A stretch of DNA of 64,000 nucleotides from an uncultured Acidobacteriota bacterium (GTDB lineage Bacteria; Acidobacteriota; Terriglobia; Terriglobales; Acidobacteriaceae). Below are positions 18,372 to 62,633 of the stretch, piece after piece; positions within the stretch are counted from its first letter, which is position 1; the number at the start of each line of letters is the position of its first letter. Where the stretch lies: NCBI GenBank assembly GCA_963837635.1, contig CAWINY010000006.1:725236-789235 (forward strand). Direction: 5' to 3'. The notes below the pieces were generated by a model. It saw nothing but the letters and a program-made list of their open reading frames with translations, did not search any database and was not told where the DNA came from. The position numbers were made by a program, and so were the translations under genes.

Positions 18372-18887
18372 CTACCCCCCGCTCGCATGCCCGTCACTCG
18401 CTCTGCCATTGAGCTTTGCCAGCGCGTTCAGCACGTCGGAGTTGGGAGGAGTCTCCCCCAGACCGTACATCTTGAACCATGCGATCTTGCCCTGCTTGTC
18501 CACGATGAAGACGGCGCGTTCGCTGATTCCGGGCAGAGGAGGGCCTTCGCGCAGCACGCCGTAGGCCTGCGCCACCGCGCCATGAGGCCAGAAGTCGCTC
18601 AACAGCGGATAAAAGACTTTACCGATCTCAAAGCGCTGCCAGGCGATATGAACGAAATAGGTGTCCGGACTAATGCCCACGACCTGGGCATCCTGCTCGG
18701 CAAACTTGGCCGCATCGGCCTGGTATGCCGGCATCTGCACCGCTCAAGCGGGGGTGAAATCCGCGGGATAGAAGGCAAGGACCGTGTGCTTGCCGCGCTG
18801 CTCGCTTAGCCGGAATCTGTCGCGGCGCTCGCCGATCACACCCTGCAGTTCGAAATCCGGAGCTTCGTCGCCGATCTTCAACGGCAT
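18372..18887 (-). CDS. AhpE-like 1-Cys peroxiredoxin, predicted selenoprotein (in-frame UGA = Sec at codon 48)
   Basis: The track ORF 18372..18740 lacks the N-terminus. In the same frame, ATG 18887 (SD GAGGTG upstream) encodes MPLKIGDEAPDFELQGVIGERRDRFRLSEQRGKHTVLAFYPADFTPA. Next comes TGA (18744-18746), then AVQMPAYQ... The Prx active-site motif FYP.DFTP.C therefore has TGA where the peroxidatic Cys should be. The downstream 'FYPLLSDFWPHGAVAQAYGV' is AhpE-like. Confidence 0.75.
18709..18732 (-). promoter_or_regulatory. Candidate bacterial SECIS hairpin
   Basis: mRNA GCC(G)GCAU-ACCAGGCCG-AUGCGGC. It has 7 bp with one bulged G and a 9-nt GG-containing loop, and starts 12 nt after the UGA. Folded by hand only. 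Confidence 0.35.
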
Positions 18888-19021
18888 TCTCACCTCTCAC
18901 CAACATTTTATTGGCAACGCTGGCGCCGCAGCAAGTTCCGCGCAGGGTGTCTCCTCGGTAGTTTTTCCGAGCGAGCCGGGAATGTTGCCGTCCTACGGGC
19001 TAAAATCAGCTTATCGAATCT

Positions 19022-28602: not shown

Positions 28603-29885
28603 GCACCGTAAATAAATAACGTTTACATCTACTATCCTGATCTGTTATTACGGTGGGCATGGACTCGGATGCCCAGCTCGGCCGGTACTTTGCTGGCATG
28701 TGGCCGCATCTGGACGAACACGCTCGGCGTTTGGTGGCTGCCAGCGAAGCTTTGGAACTGGGCTATGGCGGCATCTCGCGAGTCAGCCGCGCCTGCGGCC
28801 TATCGCGGGTCACGTTGACCAAGGGTATCGAGGAATTGAAAGCCGCGCCGCTGGCCCCGGGCCGGATTCGCCACGAGGGCGGCGGACGACACTCGTTGAC
28901 GTCCAGCGATCCCGGCATGGCGCCCGCCTTGGACAGCATGGTCGAACCCACGGCACGCGGCGACCCGCAGTCGCCCTTGCGCTGGACCTGCAAGAGCGCC
29001 CGCACGCTGGCGGCGGAACTAACAGCCCGGCACCACCCGGTCAGCCACACCAAAGTGACCCAACTCCTGCGAGAGAGTGGCTACAGCCTGCAGGGCAATC
29101 GCAAGACGGAGGAAGGGGATGACCATCCCGATCGTGACGCGCAGTTCCGTCATATCAATAGCGCCGTCAAACGCGCTTTGCGGGCAGGCGAGCCCGTCAT
29201 TTCCGTGGACACGAAGAAGAAAGAACTGATCGGTAACTACCAAAACCAGGGCCGCCAGTGGCGCCAAACCGGAACGGCGGATAAGGTCAACGGACATGAT
29301 TTTCCCGGTCCCGATGTACCCCGCGCCTATCCCTACGGAATCTACGACCTGGGGCGCAACGCGGGCTTCGTCAACGTGGGCACGGACCACGACACGGGGG
29401 CCTTCGCGGTGGCTTCGATTCGGGGCTGGTGGCGCGCCGACGGCCGGAACCTGTATCTGGGGGCACGGCGACTGCTGATCACCGCCGATGGCGGGGGTAG
29501 CAACGGCTGGCGGCTGCGACTGTGGAAATGGGAGTTACAGCGTCTGGCCGACCAGACCGGGCTGATACTGATGGTCTGCCATTTTCCGCCGGGCACGAGC
29601 AAATGGAATAAGGTGGAGCATCGGTTGTTTTCCTTCATTTCGTCCAACTGGCGCGGCGAGCCGCTACGCGATTATGAGACGGTGGTACGGCTGATCGCCG
29701 GAACGACGACGGCCAAGGGTTTGAAAGTGACCTGCCGCCTAGATCACCGCAAGTATCCCGTGGGGCGAAAGATCACGGATGAAGAGTTTGCCCATGTCAA
29801 CCTCAAGCCAGACAAATTCCATGGTGAGTGGAACTACACCATTCATCCAAGCAACTAGGTTGTAAATGTTATATATTTACGCCGC
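28603..29885 (+). mobile_element. ISAzo13-family insertion sequence, copy 1 (~1283 bp)
   Basis: Imperfect terminal IRs GCACCGTAAATAAATAACGTTTACA / TGTAAATGTTATATATTTACGCCGC. Flanked by the direct repeat (C)TTAG at 28598-28602 and 29886-29890. End positions are +/-1 bp. Confidence 0.85.
28653..29858 (+). CDS. ISAzo13 family DDE transposase
   Basis: 401 aa. 'ISVDTKKKELIGN', 'ITADGGGSNG.R..LWK', 'HFPPGTSKWNKVEHRLFS' motifs typical of ISAzo13-type transposases. Protein is identical to 61401..62606. Confidence 0.9.
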   Translation: MGMDSDAQLGRYFAGMWPHLDEHARRLVAASEALELGYGGISRVSRACGLSRVTLTKGIEELKAAPLAPGRIRHEGGGRHSLTSSDPGMAPALDSMVEPTARGDPQSPLRWTCKSARTLAAELTARHHPVSHTKVTQLLRESGYSLQGNRKTEEGDDHPDRDAQFRHINSAVKRALRAGEPVISVDTKKKELIGNYQNQGRQWRQTGTADKVNGHDFPGPDVPRAYPYGIYDLGRNAGFVNVGTDHDTGAFAVASIRGWWRADGRNLYLGARRLLITADGGGSNGWRLRLWKWELQRLADQTGLILMVCHFPPGTSKWNKVEHRLFSFISSNWRGEPLRDYETVVRLIAGTTTAKGLKVTCRLDHRKYPVGRKITDEEFAHVNLKPDKFHGEWNYTIHPSN

Positions 29886-43311: not shown

Positions 43312-43592
43312 CGGGATAGGCACCCTTCACCTCGCGCCCGCCCGGTCCCAAAACCGGGGACCGGAAGAAGGGCGGGCACTCGCCGAAGGGCCACCATCCT
43401 TTGCGACGCTTACCCCGGGCTCACGCCCGGGGCTACCTTCTGTCGCCCCCTTCGGGGGCTTGATGCATCGCCAACTCACAAAAAACGCAAGGTGCTTCGA
43501 CTCGCCGGATCGCACAAGACGTGCGACCGTCTCGCTCAGCATGACAAGGAAATCGCTGGAACGCCCTACTAGTCACTAGTTACCAGTCACTA

Positions 43593-59062: not shown

Positions 59063-59644
59063 TCAAGCAAACAGCAGATCGGCGCCGTAGATGAGGCCGT
59101 CTCCCTCGAGCCGGGCTCCAGCCGTCATACGATGCGGTCGGGCGGGCGCGGCGCTCTCGATGTGCAACACGGTGTGGCCGTGCGCCGCAAGATAATCGGC
59201 GACCAGCATGCGGTGGCAATGGAAGTAGACCTGCCTCTCCGCGCACATGATCGCGGTCCGTTCCTGTGTAGCCAGTGTGACCAGTTCGCCGATGGCCAGG
59301 CGGAACTCGGGAGTCAGCATGTAATCGGCGTAGTTGCGGAACGAGGCGCAGGTGAGCCCGAGATTGGGCGAGTCGTCGCGTATCTTCTTGCGGCGGCCTC
59401 CTAGGGAAGGCATCCAGAGATAGGCGATGCCGGCGTGTGGCAGCGTGGCCTCCAGCGCTTCGTGCTGAAGCGCCTCAGCCTCGGTCATAAATGGCGGACG
59501 CTGCGGGCCTTGAAACCACGGCATGCGCCGCGAAGCGGGATAGGACCGAATGTCCACCACCCGGTGAATCCCGTGCGCCTGCAGCACGGAAATGAACTCC
59601 TCCAGCGTGCGGGTGGAGTGGCCGATGGTGTAGAGGGTCGCCAT
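59063..59644 (-). CDS. DUF488 family protein
   Basis: 'LYTIGHSTRTLEEFISVLQAHGIHRVVDIRSYPASRR.P.F' is typical of DUF488. Confidence 0.75.
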   Translation of the reverse strand: MATLYTIGHSTRTLEEFISVLQAHGIHRVVDIRSYPASRRMPWFQGPQRPPFMTEAEALQHEALEATLPHAGIAYLWMPSLGGRRKKIRDDSPNLGLTCASFRNYADYMLTPEFRLAIGELVTLATQERTAIMCAERQVYFHCHRMLVADYLAAHGHTVLHIESAAPARPHRMTAGARLEGDGLIYGADLLFA

Positions 59645-59780
59645 TTTGGGGTTGAAACCTTTTCACCGCTGAGGACGTAGAGTACGCAGAGGAAGAGCGC
59701 AGAGGAGTAAAAAATGACCATCTTTAGAGTGCGCTATTCCTGCGCCCTCGGCGTCCTCAGTGGTGAAGAGGCTCTTATCT

Positions 59781-61259
59781 TCACTCGGCGCAGAAGCGTT
59801 CCACCCGACTCAGCGCCTCAACCAGTTCCCCATCCTGCTCAGGAAACACGGTGCGCAGATCGAGGAGTACGGTATCTCCTTCGACGCGCGCAATGACTGG
59901 GGGCACGCCCTCGCGCAGCTCGCGTGCGATCTCGTCGGCGCTCGCGTTTTCCGATTGCACGGCGAGTACGCGCGTGGGCAGAGTCGCCGATGGGGCAGAG
60001 CCGCCGCCCGGCACCGACTCGGATTCGCGCACCTCCACCAGGATGTGCGAGTGTGGAGCGAGCCTACGTTGAATCTCCCTGGCGCGGCCCTCGAGTTCAG
60101 CGACGCCGGTGCGCATCATGCGCATAGCCGGAATGGCATCCAGGTCCTGACGGATGTAGGCAAGCAGCGTAGCTTCCAGGGCGGCGTAGGTGAGTTTATC
60201 CACGCGCAAGGCGCGGAACAGAGGATTGGAGCGGATGCGCGCCACCAGCTCGCGACGGCCGGTGATCAGCCCGGCCTGCGGGCCTCCGAGCATCTTGTCC
60301 CCGCTGTAGGTGACCACGTCCGCTGCCGTGGCGAGCGTATCCAGCACGTTCGGTTCGCCGTGAATGCCGAGCGTGACGAGGTCGATCAACGCTCCGCTGC
60401 CGAGATCATGCATGACCGGGATTTCAAGTCGGCGCCCGAGTTCGACCAGTTCTTCCAGCGCGGGTTGTTCGGTAAATCCCCGGATCTCGAAATTCGAGCG
60501 ATGCACGCGCAGCAGCAGGCGCGTGCGCTCGTTGATCGCCTCAGCGTAATCCCGGATGCGGGTGCGGTTGGTGGTGCCAACCTCGCGCAGGATCGCTCCG
60601 GACTTGGCCATCACCTCGGGGATGCGGAACGAGCCGCCAATCTCCACCAGTTCGCCGCGCGAGACGATCACCTCGCCGCCTTCCGCCAGCGCATTGAGGC
60701 AGAGCAACACGGCGGCGGCATTATTGTTGACCACGATCGTCGCCAGATCATCCCGCGATTCGCCGCACAGTAGCCGCGCAAAAAGGCGGTTCGCATGAAC
60801 ATCGCGTTTGCCGCGCGCGCCGCTGGCGAGGTCGTATTCGAGGTTGGAATACCCACCAGCAGTCTCGAGGATATGTTCGAGGGCGGCGCGTCCCAAGGGC
60901 GCGCGACCGAGGTTGGTATGCAGCACGACGCCGGTGGCGTTGATTACCGGGCGAAGAGAGTACGAGAGATCTTCTGCCAAGCGGCGCGCGATGCTGCTAT
61001 TGACTTCGGCGATGGCCTGGGCCAAGCCCGCTTCATCGAGTTCATCGGCGGCAATGGATTCCCGGATCTTTCCCAGCACGCAACGCGCGGCTTCGGCCAA
61101 GGCCGCGTGGCCAGCCGCCTGCATAGGCTCGGCAAACGCCGCCGAGCGCAGCAGTTCGTCCACCGAAGGAAGCTGGCGAAAGAGGTCGGATTTCGAGCTT
61201 GGCGCCACGGGGAGAGTGTAACCCACGCGCGAGCGGGACGAGTATTCAATCGTCGCCAT
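59781..61259 (-). CDS. selA: L-seryl-tRNA(Sec) selenium transferase
   Basis: 492 aa. 'LPSVDELL', 'LRPVINATGVVLHTNLGRAPL', 'NLEYDLASGARGKRD', 'VNNNAAAVLL', 'SGDKMLGGPQAG' (PLP Lys). Confidence 0.9.
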   Translation of the reverse strand: MATIEYSSRSRVGYTLPVAPSSKSDLFRQLPSVDELLRSAAFAEPMQAAGHAALAEAARCVLGKIRESIAADELDEAGLAQAIAEVNSSIARRLAEDLSYSLRPVINATGVVLHTNLGRAPLGRAALEHILETAGGYSNLEYDLASGARGKRDVHANRLFARLLCGESRDDLATIVVNNNAAAVLLCLNALAEGGEVIVSRGELVEIGGSFRIPEVMAKSGAILREVGTTNRTRIRDYAEAINERTRLLLRVHRSNFEIRGFTEQPALEELVELGRRLEIPVMHDLGSGALIDLVTLGIHGEPNVLDTLATAADVVTYSGDKMLGGPQAGLITGRRELVARIRSNPLFRALRVDKLTYAALEATLLAYIRQDLDAIPAMRMMRTGVAELEGRAREIQRRLAPHSHILVEVRESESVPGGGSAPSATLPTRVLAVQSENASADEIARELREGVPPVIARVEGDTVLLDLRTVFPEQDGELVEALSRVERFCAE

Positions 61260-61350: not shown

Positions 61351-62633
61351 GAACCGTAAATAAATAACGTTTACATCTACTATCCTGATCTGTTATTACG
61401 GTGGGCATGGACTCGGATGCCCAGCTCGGCCGGTACTTTGCTGGCATGTGGCCGCATCTGGACGAACACGCTCGGCGTTTGGTGGCTGCCAGCGAAGCTT
61501 TGGAACTGGGCTATGGCGGCATCTCGCGAGTCAGCCGCGCCTGCGGCCTATCGCGGGTCACGTTGACCAAGGGTATCGAGGAATTGAAAGCCGCGCCGTT
61601 GGCCCCGGGCCGGATTCGCCACGAGGGCGGCGGACGACACTCGTTGACGTCCAGCGATCCCGGCATGGCGCCCGCCTTGGACAGCATGGTCGAACCCACG
61701 GCACGCGGCGACCCGCAGTCGCCCTTGCGCTGGACCTGCAAGAGCGCCCGCACGCTGGCGGCGGAACTAACAGCCCGGCACCACCCGGTCAGCCACACCA
61801 AAGTGACCCAACTCCTGCGAGAGAGTGGCTACAGCCTGCAGGGCAATCGCAAGACGGAGGAAGGGGATGACCATCCCGATCGTGACGCGCAGTTCCGTCA
61901 TATCAATAGCGCCGTCAAACGCGCTTTGCGGGCAGGCGAGCCCGTCATTTCCGTGGACACGAAGAAGAAAGAACTGATCGGTAACTACCAAAACCAGGGC
62001 CGCCAGTGGCGCCAAACCGGAACGGCGGATAAGGTCAACGGACATGATTTTCCCGGTCCCGATGTACCCCGCGCCTATCCCTACGGAATCTACGACCTGG
62101 GGCGCAACGCGGGCTTCGTCAACGTGGGCACGGACCACGACACGGGGGCCTTCGCGGTGGCTTCGATTCGGGGCTGGTGGCGCGCCGACGGCCGGAACCT
62201 GTATCTGGGGGCACGGCGACTGCTGATCACCGCCGATGGCGGGGGTAGCAACGGCTGGCGGCTGCGACTGTGGAAATGGGAGTTACAGCGTCTGGCCGAC
62301 CAGACCGGGCTGATACTGATGGTCTGCCATTTTCCGCCGGGCACGAGCAAATGGAATAAGGTGGAGCATCGGTTGTTTTCCTTCATTTCGTCCAACTGGC
62401 GCGGCGAGCCGCTACGCGATTATGAGACGGTGGTACGGCTGATCGCCGGAACGACGACGGCCAAGGGTTTGAAAGTGACCTGCCGCCTAGATCACCGCAA
62501 GTATCCCGTGGGGCGAAAGATCACGGATGAAGAGTTTGCCCATGTCAACCTCAAGCCAGACAAATTCCATGGTGAGTGGAACTACACCATTCATCCAAGC
62601 AACTAGGTTGTAAACGTTATATATTTACGCCGC
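61351..62633 (+). mobile_element. ISAzo13-family insertion sequence, copy 2 (~1283 bp)
   Basis: Same length and orientation as copy 1. I found only 3 nucleotide differences (positions equivalent to 28604, ~28850, ~29869). Flanked by (C)TAAG at 61346-61350 and 62634-62638. Confidence 0.85.
61401..62606 (+). CDS. ISAzo13 family DDE transposase
   Basis: 401-aa protein identical to 28653..29858. Confidence 0.9.
   Translation: MGMDSDAQLGRYFAGMWPHLDEHARRLVAASEALELGYGGISRVSRACGLSRVTLTKGIEELKAAPLAPGRIRHEGGGRHSLTSSDPGMAPALDSMVEPTARGDPQSPLRWTCKSARTLAAELTARHHPVSHTKVTQLLRESGYSLQGNRKTEEGDDHPDRDAQFRHINSAVKRALRAGEPVISVDTKKKELIGNYQNQGRQWRQTGTADKVNGHDFPGPDVPRAYPYGIYDLGRNAGFVNVGTDHDTGAFAVASIRGWWRADGRNLYLGARRLLITADGGGSNGWRLRLWKWELQRLADQTGLILMVCHFPPGTSKWNKVEHRLFSFISSNWRGEPLRDYETVVRLIAGTTTAKGLKVTCRLDHRKYPVGRKITDEEFAHVNLKPDKFHGEWNYTIHPSN

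What the first reader, a model, noticed from the sequence alone, without database searches (positions are those of the whole stretch)
18372..18887. Predicted selenocysteine peroxiredoxin: UGA sits exactly at the peroxidatic-Cys position of an AhpE-like Prx
The ORF track reports only a 122-aa C-terminal piece (18372..18740), which starts at a GTG. Reading the same frame upstream gives a well-formed Prx N-terminus from ATG 18887, with GAGGTG 6-8 nt upstream: MPLKIGDEAPDFELQGVIGERRDRFRLSEQRGKHTVLAFYPADFTPA. A single TGA follows at 18744-18746, and the frame continues as AVQMPAYQ.... In peroxiredoxins the motif is (F/Y)P.DFT(P/F).C, so the stop codon replaces the catalytic Cys. The downstream sequence (FYPLLSDFWPHGAVAQAYGV...RAVFIVDKQGKI) closely resembles mycobacterial AhpE-type 1-Cys Prx. 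The window also encodes SelA (59781..61259), so the organism has at least part of the Sec-insertion machinery. A hand-folded hairpin (18709-18732) begins 12 nt after the UGA, at roughly the spacing used by bacterial SECIS elements. Sec-containing Prx exist (for example PrxU of Eubacterium acidaminophilum). An AhpE-like Sec form in this lineage would usually be mis-annotated as a truncated gene or pseudogene.
Basis: partly seen in the sequence, partly recalled or inferred. Interest (0 to 1): 0.8.

Follow-up and report, generated by a model that had tools for sequence, protein, structure and literature searches.

The report
Selenocysteine peroxiredoxin gene with two-hairpin signal
This is a real but ordinary selenocysteine-containing peroxiredoxin gene from an acidobacterium, annotated as a truncated gene because its UGA was read as a stop; the unusual part is that its recoding signal appears to consist of two conserved RNA hairpins rather than one.

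Summary
On the minus strand, 18887..18372 is one 171-codon AhpC/TSA peroxiredoxin frame. Its only interruption is a UGA (18746..18744), which sits at the peroxidatic position of the motif PxxxTxxU.

In 160 homologous loci that column reads TGA 39 times, TGC or TGT 116 times, Ser or Thr 5 times, and never TAA or TAG. TGA ends 13 of the 33 longest non-overlapping ORFs in the window, so it still works as a stop and recoding must be local. SelA is present and intact. selB, selC and selD are not in the window, and the rest of the genome could not be searched.

Selenocysteine peroxiredoxins are a long-catalogued bacterial selenoprotein family. Homologs about 49% identical, with TGA in the same column, occur in Anaeromyxobacter, a genus listed in 2006 as having three. 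This gene is therefore a new member of a known kind.

The new point concerns the RNA. Two hairpins specific to the Sec forms follow the UGA:
- Hairpin 1 (18733..18694) covaries and has a variable loop.
- Hairpin 2 (18692..18672) is nearly invariant across four phyla, including at synonymous sites. It carries the GGUC loop found in canonical SECIS elements of neighbouring selenoprotein genes and of E. coli fdhF, but it lies 59 nt from the UGA.

If hairpin 1 is folded, the unpaired linker between the UGA and hairpin 2 is 11 nt. I infer a bipartite SECIS in which hairpin 1 acts as a folded spacer. This has not been tested.

The parts
18372..18887 (-). Complete selenoprotein gene: 171-codon AhpE-like peroxiredoxin with ATG at 18887, Sec codon 48 and TAG stop at 18374..18372. 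The catalytic residues are Pro41, Thr45, Sec48 and Arg124. The product contains no Cys.
   Evidence: sequence and frame; Pfam AhpC-TSA, 115.3 bits; alignment to solved peroxiredoxins, including the conserved Arg.
18744..18746 (-). In-frame UGA, read as selenocysteine, at the peroxidatic position of the motif PxxxTxxU.
   Evidence: the same column in 160 homologous loci reads TGA 39, TGC 105, TGT 11, AGC 3, ACC 2, with no TAA or TAG. One search confirms column identity with the peroxidatic Cys.
18893..18896 (-). Shine-Dalgarno-like GAGG, 5 nt upstream of the ATG.
   Evidence: read directly from the sequence. Function is inferred.
18694..18733 (-). Hairpin 1: a 40-nt stem-loop starting 10-11 nt after the UGA. 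Its apical loop lies 27-28 nt after the UGA. The structure is conserved but the loop sequence varies. It is either the canonical SECIS or, on my reading, a folded spacer.
   Evidence: fold; z-score -2.9; 9 of 12 pairs show changes on both sides, 87-88% of cells are paired, 0 of 500 shuffles reach that, and slid controls give 26-54%; mean MFE is -20.3 kcal/mol in Sec forms against -12.9 in Cys forms, p = 1.5e-15; about 11 different loop sequences.
18672..18692 (-). Hairpin 2: GAUGCCCA-GGUCG-UGGGCAUU, a 7-8 bp stem with the loop motif GGUC at 18684..18681. It begins 1 nt after hairpin 1. It is nearly invariant in all Sec forms and is the candidate SelB-binding minihelix.
   Evidence: present in 36 of 36 distinct Sec forms; mean MFE -12.5 against -7.2 kcal/mol in Cys forms. 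(third-codon-position identity 0.89-1.00 at codons +19..+23, against about 0.6 elsewhere). (GCC 32/32 against 20/34; GTC 32/34 against 11/38). (a compensatory GC to AU change). (same loop as canonical SECIS elements elsewhere).
59781..61259 (-). selA, L-seryl-tRNA(Sec) selenium transferase. It is the only component of the Sec machinery found in the window.
   Evidence: TIGR00474 at 555.5 bits against a cutoff of 267.9, covering the full model.

Best explanation
**What it is.** The locus is one intact gene for a selenocysteine-containing, AhpE-like peroxiredoxin in an acidobacterium.

**How the enzyme works (inferred from the family).** Sec48 replaces the peroxidatic cysteine in the P41-x3-T45-x2-U48 ... 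R124 active site. It attacks the peroxide and forms a selenenic acid. This protein has no cysteine at all, so an external thiol partner must reduce the selenenic acid. That makes it a '1-Sec' mechanism, like the 1-Cys AhpE.

**How the UGA is decoded.** Decoding as Sec requires Sec-tRNA(Sec), which SelA makes and SelB delivers, plus an mRNA signal just downstream of the UGA. Here the signal has two parts, and both are specific to the Sec forms:
- Hairpin 1 is 40 nt long and starts 10-11 nt after the UGA. Its structure is conserved but its loop is not.
- Hairpin 2 abuts hairpin 1. It has a 7-8 bp stem and an invariant GGUC(N) loop.

**Proposed roles of the hairpins (inferred, about even odds).** My reading is that hairpin 2 is the SelB-binding minihelix and hairpin 1 is a folded spacer. 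With hairpin 1 folded, 10 + 1 = 11 unpaired nucleotides separate the UGA from the base of hairpin 2. That matches the 11-13 nt seen in canonical SECIS elements of the same lineages.

**Shown versus inferred.**
- Shown: the frame; the Sec/Cys column; both hairpins and their restriction to Sec forms; SelA.
- Inferred: actual selenium insertion; presence of SelB, tRNA-Sec and SelD elsewhere in the genome; which hairpin binds SelB; the identity of the reductant.
For: **The gene and its catalytic site.**
- There is a single in-frame TGA in an otherwise open 171-codon frame.
- Pfam AhpC-TSA scores 115 bits.
- Residue 48 aligns with the peroxidatic Cys, and Arg124 with the conserved Arg, of solved peroxiredoxins.

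**The Sec/Cys column.**
- It reads TGA 39, Cys 116 and Ser/Thr 5 in 160 loci, with no other stop codons.
- TGA forms occur in Terriglobales, Pyrinomonadaceae, Anaeromyxobacter, Chloroflexota and Armatimonadota.
- 13 of the 33 longest non-overlapping ORFs in the window end in TGA, so there is no genome-wide reassignment.

**Sec machinery.**
- SelA is intact.
- A Sec-form relative, L029, has a SelB homolog 1.6 kb from its Prx gene.

**Hairpin 1.**
- 9 of 12 pairs carry compensatory changes, and 0 of 500 shuffles reach the observed values.
- It is more stable in Sec forms than in Cys forms at equal G+C.

**Hairpin 2.**
- It shows the highest synonymous-site conservation in the gene.
- Its codon choices differ from those of Cys forms (p = 2e-5 and 7e-9).
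- There is one compensatory GC to AU change.

**The GGUC or NGUN loop on a 6-7 bp stem is the canonical SECIS in related genes.**
- The PrdB-like selenoprotein gene next to the Sec-Prx in Anaeromyxobacter-type loci: 20 nt from UGA to the loop.
- A YDTT(U/C)LG selenoprotein family in Pyrinomonadaceae: 17 nt.
- E. coli fdhF: loop at nt 22-25.

**Specificity.** A covariance model of the two-hairpin element scores all Sec forms at 47.9 bits or more and all Cys forms at 37.3 bits or less, over 827 kb. The Sec forms were the training set.

**Literature.** Sec-Prx is an established family (PMC1794560, PMC13188914).
Against: - selB, selD and tRNA-Sec are not in the 64-kb window. The rest of the genome could not be examined. 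selA has no selB downstream of it.
- There is no direct evidence of selenium incorporation.
- For the bipartite model, hairpin 1 on its own largely satisfies the published bacterial SECIS rules: spacing of 24-28 nt, and a G in the first two loop positions in 27 of 33 sequences. The simpler single-hairpin reading is therefore not excluded.
- Hairpin 2 lies 59 nt from the UGA, outside the 16-37 nt range of that model.
- The Sec forms are related to each other and many come from one genus. The shuffle statistics and Fisher tests therefore overstate independence.
- RNAalifold returned no consensus structure for the alignment.
Confidence: 0.85

Rival explanations
1. The gene is the same selenoprotein, but its SECIS is an ordinary single hairpin. 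Hairpin 1 binds SelB. Hairpin 2 is an accessory element (for example a ribosome-pausing or mRNA-stabilising structure) or is unrelated to recoding.
For: - Hairpin 1 meets the published bSECIS constraints. The constraints are; spacing of 24-28 nt and MFE of -13.5 to -24 kcal/mol are; the structure covaries.
- 27 of 33 hairpin 1 loops begin with G.
- Hairpin 2 lies 59 nt from the UGA, outside the 16-37 nt range of the model.
Against: - Hairpin 1 loops differ in sequence and size between lineages: AUG, GAUCU, GAC, CCGCC, UCAAGGC, GACAAAGAA and others.
- In contrast, the canonical SECIS loops of the same lineages are GGUC or AGUU.
- Hairpin 2 carries exactly that loop. It is held invariant at synonymous sites across four phyla and only in Sec forms.
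- Hairpin 2 starts 1 nt after hairpin 1, which suggests a single integrated structure.
Confidence: 0.4
2. The locus is a pseudogene or a truncated gene. The TGA is a true nonsense mutation, and only fragments, if anything, are made.
For: - Public annotation calls only the 120-aa C-terminal piece.
- selB, selC and selD were not seen in the window.
Against: - The stop sits exactly at the catalytic Cys column and is always TGA in 39 other loci from several phyla.
- Both halves remain open and conserved.
- Structures specific to Sec forms follow the codon.
- SelA is intact.
Confidence: 0.04
3. The UGA is read through without selenium. Cys or Trp would be inserted by near-cognate suppression, or Cys would be loaded through the Sec pathway, giving an ordinary thiol peroxiredoxin.
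For: Nothing in the sequence favours this. It stays formally possible because no selenium data exist and selD was not found in the window.
Against: - Conserved SECIS-type hairpins are specific to TGA forms.
- SelA is present.
- TGA ends 13 of the 33 longest non-overlapping ORFs in the window.
Confidence: 0.03
4. A sequencing or assembly error turned TGC or TGT into TGA.
For: TGT and TGA differ by a single base.
Against: - The same TGA appears in 39 independent assemblies.
- Matching RNA structures accompany it and are absent from Cys forms.
- The deposited annotation of the source contig has the same truncation.
Confidence: 0.01

Closest known systems
Bacterial Sec-containing peroxiredoxin family ('Prx', PF00578, TxxU), as catalogued by Zhang et al. 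2006 (PMC1794560) and the 2026 review PMC13188914. It includes the three Sec-peroxiredoxins listed for Anaeromyxobacter dehalogenans.
   Same: - It has the AhpC/TSA fold family and Sec at the peroxidatic position of PxxxTxxU.
- Sec/Cys pairs occur among homologs.
- Anaeromyxobacter homologs about 49% identical to this protein carry TGA in the same column and the same two hairpins.
   Different: - The host is an acidobacterium (Terriglobales-like).
- This particular protein has no other Cys.
- I found no published description of the two-hairpin signal for this clade. That search covered only a limited library.
PrxU of Eubacterium acidaminophilum (NCBIfam NF040737), the biochemically characterised Sec-peroxiredoxin.
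   Same: It is a peroxiredoxin with Sec at the peroxidatic position.
   Different: - It belongs to a different subfamily: this protein scores 81.3 bits against the PrxU cutoff of 270.
- The PrxU model is 233 positions long, against 171 aa here.
Mycobacterium tuberculosis AhpE (Rv2238c; PDB 1xxu, 1xvw, 4x0x), a 1-Cys peroxiredoxin.
   Same: - The two align end to end (residues 3-158 against 2-150).
- They share the block PLLSDFWPHGAV(A/S)QAYGV.
- Neither has the insertions of 2-Cys peroxiredoxins or a resolving Cys.
- They are similar in length.
   Different: - AhpE has Cys rather than Sec.
- A 2-Cys Prx scores higher (84.5 bits against 74.4 for AhpE), so the subfamily assignment is not clean.
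- The reductant known for AhpE is actinobacterial, and no equivalent is evident here.
E. coli fdhF SECIS, with its SelB-binding minihelix and GGUC loop.
   Same: - Hairpin 2 has the same loop motif in a similar context: CA-GGUC-UG in fdhF against CCA-GGUC-GUGG here.
- With hairpin 1 folded, the unpaired linker to the UGA is 11 nt. From my own knowledge, that is the spacing required in E. coli.
   Different: - In fdhF the GGUC loop is at nt 22-25 from the UGA, within a single hairpin.
- Here it is at nt 63-66, with a separate 40-nt covarying hairpin in between.

Membership tests
Peroxiredoxin (Pfam PF00578 AhpC/TSA) | The profile score is above the curated cutoff. | tested here: met
   115.3 bits against a cutoff of 26, over residues 5-137 and profile positions 1-123 of 124. 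Cys was substituted for Sec.
Peroxiredoxin (Pfam PF00578 AhpC/TSA) | The active site has PxxxTxx(C/U) plus the conserved Arg. | tested here: met
   P41, T45, U48 and R124 align with the corresponding residues of solved 2-Cys Prx and AhpE.
AhpE subfamily of peroxiredoxins | It is closest to AhpE among characterised peroxiredoxins. | tested here: inconclusive
   AhpE is the only solved relative aligned end to end, and it shares the LLSDFWPHGAV.QAYGV block. However, a 2-Cys Prx scores higher (84.5 against 74.4 bits). No subfamily phylogeny or PREX-type classification was run.
AhpE subfamily of peroxiredoxins | It is a 1-Cys type with no resolving cysteine. | tested here: met
   the 171-aa product has no Cys; 9 Sec forms have none, while most others have one additional Cys.
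PrxU (NCBIfam NF040737, equivalog) | The score is above the equivalog cutoff. | tested here: not met
   81.3 bits against a cutoff of 270.
Bacterial selenoprotein gene | An in-frame UGA aligns with Cys in homologs (a Sec/Cys pair), and both flanks are conserved. | tested here: met
   TGA 39, Cys 116, and no TAA or TAG in 160 loci; the closest full-length relatives (61-69% identical) have Cys.
Bacterial selenoprotein gene | There is a SECIS downstream of the UGA that fits the bSECIS model: loop of 3-9 nt, upper stem of 4-16 bp, G in the first two loop positions, 16-37 nt spacing, and MFE of -7.5 kcal/mol or lower (PMC13188914). | tested here: inconclusive
- Hairpin 1 meets the spacing, stem and energy rules. 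Its MFE loop in the window is AUG, with G in third position, so it meets the G rule only if the loop is drawn as GAUGC.
- Hairpin 2 meets the loop, stem and energy rules (GGUCG) but lies 59 nt from the UGA.
- Neither hairpin meets all the rules cleanly. Together they cover all of them.
Bacterial selenoprotein gene | The downstream structure is conserved and covaries in UGA-containing orthologs, and is absent from Cys orthologs. | tested here: met
Bacterial selenoprotein gene | The genome has the Sec machinery: selA, selB, selC and selD. | tested here: inconclusive
   selA is present. The window holds no tRNA-Sec and no selB or selD.
Bacterial selenoprotein gene | Selenium is incorporated at the UGA position. 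| not testable with these tools
   This requires 75Se labelling or mass spectrometry.

The most novel reading that the evidence does not exclude
This peroxiredoxin clade may use a bipartite bacterial SECIS.
- The SelB-binding minihelix (7-8 bp stem, invariant GGUC loop) sits 59 nt downstream of the UGA. That is well outside the 16-37 nt range of the accepted model.
- A covarying 40-nt hairpin lies in between. Folding it out of the way would leave the canonical 11-nt effective distance.

If this is right, bacterial SECIS spacing rules apply to folded distance rather than linear distance. SECIS-based gene finders would then mislocate or miss such elements.
Probability: 0.45. Interest if true: 0.65.

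Novelty: new member of a known kind. Interest (0 to 1): 0.4.

Why it matters
**Annotation.** The gene should be recorded as one 171-aa selenoprotein with U at residue 48, not as a 120-aa fragment. Dozens of metagenomic homologs are truncated at the same point. The gene also shows that this acidobacterium uses selenocysteine for peroxide defence.

**Biology.** The gene itself is unsurprising, because Sec-peroxiredoxins have been catalogued since 2001-2006. The more useful result is the anatomy of the RNA signal. Two hairpins specific to Sec forms are conserved across four phyla. The sequence-invariant one carries the GGUC loop of canonical SECIS elements but lies too far from the UGA for the current bacterial SECIS model.

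**Why the RNA result is testable.** It offers a concrete natural case for asking whether SelB positioning depends on linear or on folded distance. It may also explain some of the SECIS elements that reviews describe as failing the consensus model.

Tried and rejected
- **RNAalifold** on the 31-sequence alignment returned no consensus structure. I therefore named the structure from the individual folds and tested it by pair counting.
- **Rfam** gave nothing for the region at gathering threshold or at E up to 10.
- **Recovering the source contig**, to look for selB, selC and selD beyond the window, failed. The truncated Prx piece, a window-edge protein and SelA are not on record with exactly these sequences. 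The cluster look-up gave no accession.
- **tblastn** with E. coli SelB and SelD against the window found nothing better than E = 1.
- **A scan for other TGA-interrupted ORFs** with coding-like GC3 on both sides found no second convincing selenoprotein gene in the window.
- **The promoter and terminator scan** around the gene found nothing.
- **NCBIfam** does not recognise the YDTT(U/C)LG family.
- **Explanations considered and rejected:** genome-wide UGA reassignment (13 of the 33 longest non-overlapping ORFs in the window end in TGA), pseudogene, and sequencing error (see the rival explanations).
- **PrxU membership** was tested and not met.
- **Literature search** for two-hairpin bacterial SECIS elements found nothing relevant in the held library. 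That is weak evidence of absence.
Full report
**Observation.**
- The minus strand from 18887 to 18372 reads as a single 171-codon frame. It contains one internal TGA at 18746..18744 (codon 48) and a terminal TAG.
- With Cys placed at residue 48, the protein matches Pfam AhpC/TSA at 115.3 bits against a cutoff of 26.
- In HMMER alignments to solved structures, residue 48 falls on the peroxidatic Cys of a 2-Cys peroxiredoxin and of M. tuberculosis AhpE. Arg124 falls on the conserved active-site Arg. The motif is P41-x3-T45-x2-U48.
- The product contains no cysteine.

**Is it more than chance?**
- I collected 80 homologous loci from species-representative genomes and 80 from metagenomes, then read the codon aligned to residue 48 in each. 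The counts were TGA 39, TGC 105, TGT 11, AGC 3 and ACC 2. No TAA or TAG occurs there, and the frame stays open on both sides.
- TGA forms occur in Terriglobales (L001, L003), Pyrinomonadaceae (L029), many Anaeromyxobacter genomes, a Chloroflexota MAG (L013) and an Armatimonadota MAG (L015).
- The protein database shows the same split. Full-length relatives at 61-69% identity have Cys. Many closer relatives are 108-120-aa fragments that begin just after the UGA, which is the signature of gene callers stopping at a Sec codon.
- 13 of the 33 longest non-overlapping ORFs in this window end in TGA, so the codon has not been reassigned genome-wide.

**Sec machinery.**
- The ORF at 59781..61259(-) is SelA, scoring 555.5 bits on TIGR00474 against a cutoff of 267.9.
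- The window contains no tRNA-Sec, and no SelB or SelD detectable with the E. coli proteins.
- I could not reach the rest of the genome.
- One Sec-form relative, L029, has a SelB homolog 1.6 kb from its peroxiredoxin gene.
- The Acido-Lenti-1 RNA at 43413..43460 and the best relatives place the window in Acidobacteriota, probably Terriglobales.

**The RNA signal: hairpin 1.**
- The 79 nt after the UGA fold into two adjacent hairpins, with an MFE of -35.7 kcal/mol and a z-score of -2.9.
- Hairpin 1 spans alignment columns 14-53, counting the U of UGA as column 1. In the window this is 18733..18694.
- It is present in every distinct Sec form as a single long stem-loop, with an MFE of -13.5 to -24 kcal/mol.
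- It covaries. 9 of 12 pairs show changes on both sides, and 87-88% of cells are paired against 26-54% when the partner is slid. No shuffle out of 500 reaches the observed values.
- The same segment is much less stable in Cys forms at equal G+C: -12.9 against -20.3 kcal/mol, p = 1.5e-15. The sequences are not phylogenetically independent.
- Its apical loop differs between lineages in both sequence and size: AUG, GAUCU, GAC, GAACU, CCGCC, UCAAGGC, GACAAAGAA and others.

**The RNA signal: hairpin 2.**
- Hairpin 2 spans columns 55-75, which is window 18692..18672.
- It is present in all 36 distinct Sec forms and almost invariant at the nucleotide level. It is mostly absent from Cys forms: mean MFE of the 30-nt segment is -12.5 against -7.2 kcal/mol.
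- Among 19 non-redundant Sec forms that are only about 50% identical as proteins, third-codon-position identity reaches 0.89-1.00 at codons +19 to +23. This is the highest in the gene, against a background of about 0.6.
- Codon choice differs from Cys forms that encode the same residues. Ala is GCC in 32/32 against 20/34 (p = 2e-5). Val is GTC in 32/34 against 11/38 (p = 7e-9). Leu is CTG rather than CTC. The Gln codon CAG at +20 is essentially confined to Sec forms.
- Two lineages carry a compensatory GC to AU change, AUACCC...GGGUAU.
- Hairpin 2 is therefore under selection as RNA, and only when the gene carries UGA.

- Hairpin 1 meets the spacing rule (24-28 nt), the stem rule and the energy rule. 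It meets the G rule in 27 of 33 sequences, but its loop is not conserved.
- Hairpin 2 meets the loop rule (GGUC), the stem rule and the energy rule, but it lies 59 nt from the UGA.

To see what SelB recognises in these lineages, I looked for other selenoprotein genes in the fetched loci.
- In Anaeromyxobacter-type loci, the gene immediately after the Sec-peroxiredoxin is a PrdB-like selenoprotein (motif LTGGURLCH). It scores 139 bits on TIGR04483, below the equivalog cutoff. Its SECIS is compact: GCACGGU-GGUC-ACCGUGC, with 20 nt between the UGA and the loop, and a compensatory change in L113.
- In Pyrinomonadaceae, a family of small proteins with the motif YDTT(U/C)LG has the SECIS GACGGC-GGUC-GCCGUC, or the same stem with the loop AGUU, 17 nt after the UGA. 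Full-length homologs have Cys at that position.
- E. coli fdhF has GCA-GGUC-UGC with the loop at nt 22-25.
- In all three, 11-13 unpaired nucleotides separate the UGA from the base of the minihelix.
- In the peroxiredoxin, if hairpin 1 is folded, the unpaired nucleotides between the UGA and hairpin 2 number 10 + 1 = 11.

From this I infer that hairpin 2 is the SelB-binding minihelix and hairpin 1 is a folded spacer that keeps the effective distance canonical. This is an inference with roughly even odds. The simpler alternative, that hairpin 1 alone is the SECIS, is not excluded.

A covariance model of the two-hairpin element separates Sec forms (47.9 bits or more) from Cys forms (37.3 bits or less). 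It finds no full two-hairpin match outside the aligned Prx position in 827 kb. The Sec forms were its training set.

**Subfamily.**
- The protein is not PrxU: it scores 81.3 bits against a cutoff of 270.
- M. tuberculosis AhpE is the only solved relative aligned end to end. It shares the block PLLSDFWPHGAV(A/S)QAYGV and lacks the insertions of 2-Cys peroxiredoxins.
- A 2-Cys Prx scores slightly higher over the core (84.5 against 74.4 bits).
- 'AhpE-like' is a fair description, but membership was not established.

**Evolutionary pattern.**
- A rough neighbour-joining ordering places the Sec forms in three groups interleaved with Cys forms.
- The closest Cys relatives of the window's group use TGT (L002, L084-L086), whereas distant Cys forms mostly use TGC. 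This is consistent with single-base Sec/Cys conversions, a pattern already described for this family (PMC1794560).

**Comparison with what is known, and novelty.**
- Sec-containing peroxiredoxins were shown biochemically in E. acidaminophilum; the reference is cited in PMC13188914.
- They ranked among the most frequent bacterial selenoprotein families in 2006, with three listed for Anaeromyxobacter dehalogenans and selenoproteins noted in Acidobacteria.
- The homologs I found in Anaeromyxobacter carry the same TGA and the same hairpins.
- What I could not find described is the two-hairpin arrangement (limited library). The 2026 review notes only that some predicted bacterial SECIS elements do not fit the consensus model.

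**Verdict.**
- Confidence that this is a functional selenoprotein gene is about 0.85-0.9. It is limited by the unseen selB, selC and selD and by the lack of selenium data.
- Interest is 0.4. The gene is ordinary, but its recoding signal has a modestly interesting and testable feature.

Noticed in passing
L005 3484..4194 (+); the same arrangement occurs in L006, L007, L009-L011, L014, L016, L017, L019, L021, L023, L089, L096, L097, L099, L101 and L103-L106, L113: In Anaeromyxobacter-type loci, the gene immediately downstream of the Sec-peroxiredoxin is a second selenoprotein. It is a PrdB-like protein with the motif LTGGURLCH, scoring 139 bits on TIGR04483 (below the cutoff of 300). Its SECIS is canonical: GCACGGU-GGUC-ACCGUGC, 20 nt after the UGA. 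The pair looks like a two-selenoprotein operon.
   Followed up: partly
L029 4095..4493 (-); also L165-L170 (gene end at 1722, 819 or 638): This is a small selenoprotein family with no Pfam domain on record for any homolog and no NCBIfam match.
- Its motifs are QDEFTHD...YDTT(U/C)LG...GHAAC.
- Many database members are truncated at the UGA (67-73 aa), while full-length homologs (126-131 aa) have Cys.
- It occurs in Pyrinomonadaceae and Blastocatellia, often next to a HEAT/PPIase protein and a DUF4112 protein.
- The SECIS is GACGGC-(GGUC or AGUU)-GCCGUC, 17 nt after the UGA.
- I did not find it in the 2026 review's table.
   Followed up: partly
L029 275..1411 (- in locus coordinates): A SelB homolog (37% identity to E. 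coli SelB over residues 1-365, 234 bits) lies about 1.6 kb from the Sec-peroxiredoxin gene of this Pyrinomonadaceae MAG.
   Followed up: no
L004, L088, L134 (AGC) and L124, L132 (ACC) at the column aligned to codon 48: A few acidobacterial homologs have Ser or Thr in place of the peroxidatic Cys/Sec (for example FYPFNWEPISSKH). They presumably cannot act as peroxidases.
   Followed up: no
L002, L084, L085, L086 compared with the other Cys forms: The Cys forms closest to the window's Sec clade use TGT, while distant Cys forms mostly use TGC (105 TGC against 11 TGT overall). This suggests recent single-base TGA/TGT conversions.
   Followed up: partly
window 28852..29866 and 61600..62614: Two copies of a 1015-bp stretch are exactly identical. 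Each lies within a 405-aa ORF that looks like a transposase (28641..29858 and 61389..62606, + strand), so this is probably an insertion sequence present twice. One copy lies next to selA.
   Followed up: partly
window 43413..43460 (+): An Acido-Lenti-1 small RNA (Rfam RF01687) scores 45.5 bits against a gathering score of 37. It supports an acidobacterial origin for the window.
   Followed up: no
window 59063..61259 (-): selA stands alone. The ORF downstream of it (59063..59644, 193 aa) has no NCBIfam match and is not selB, unlike the selAB arrangement in E. coli.
   Followed up: partly
L006 ~2181, L010 ~2153, L017 ~1186, L023 ~2251 (+): Several Anaeromyxobacter loci carry a second, Cys-containing peroxiredoxin gene (motif FYPRDFT.VCPTE) about 1 kb upstream of the Sec-peroxiredoxin.
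   Followed up: no
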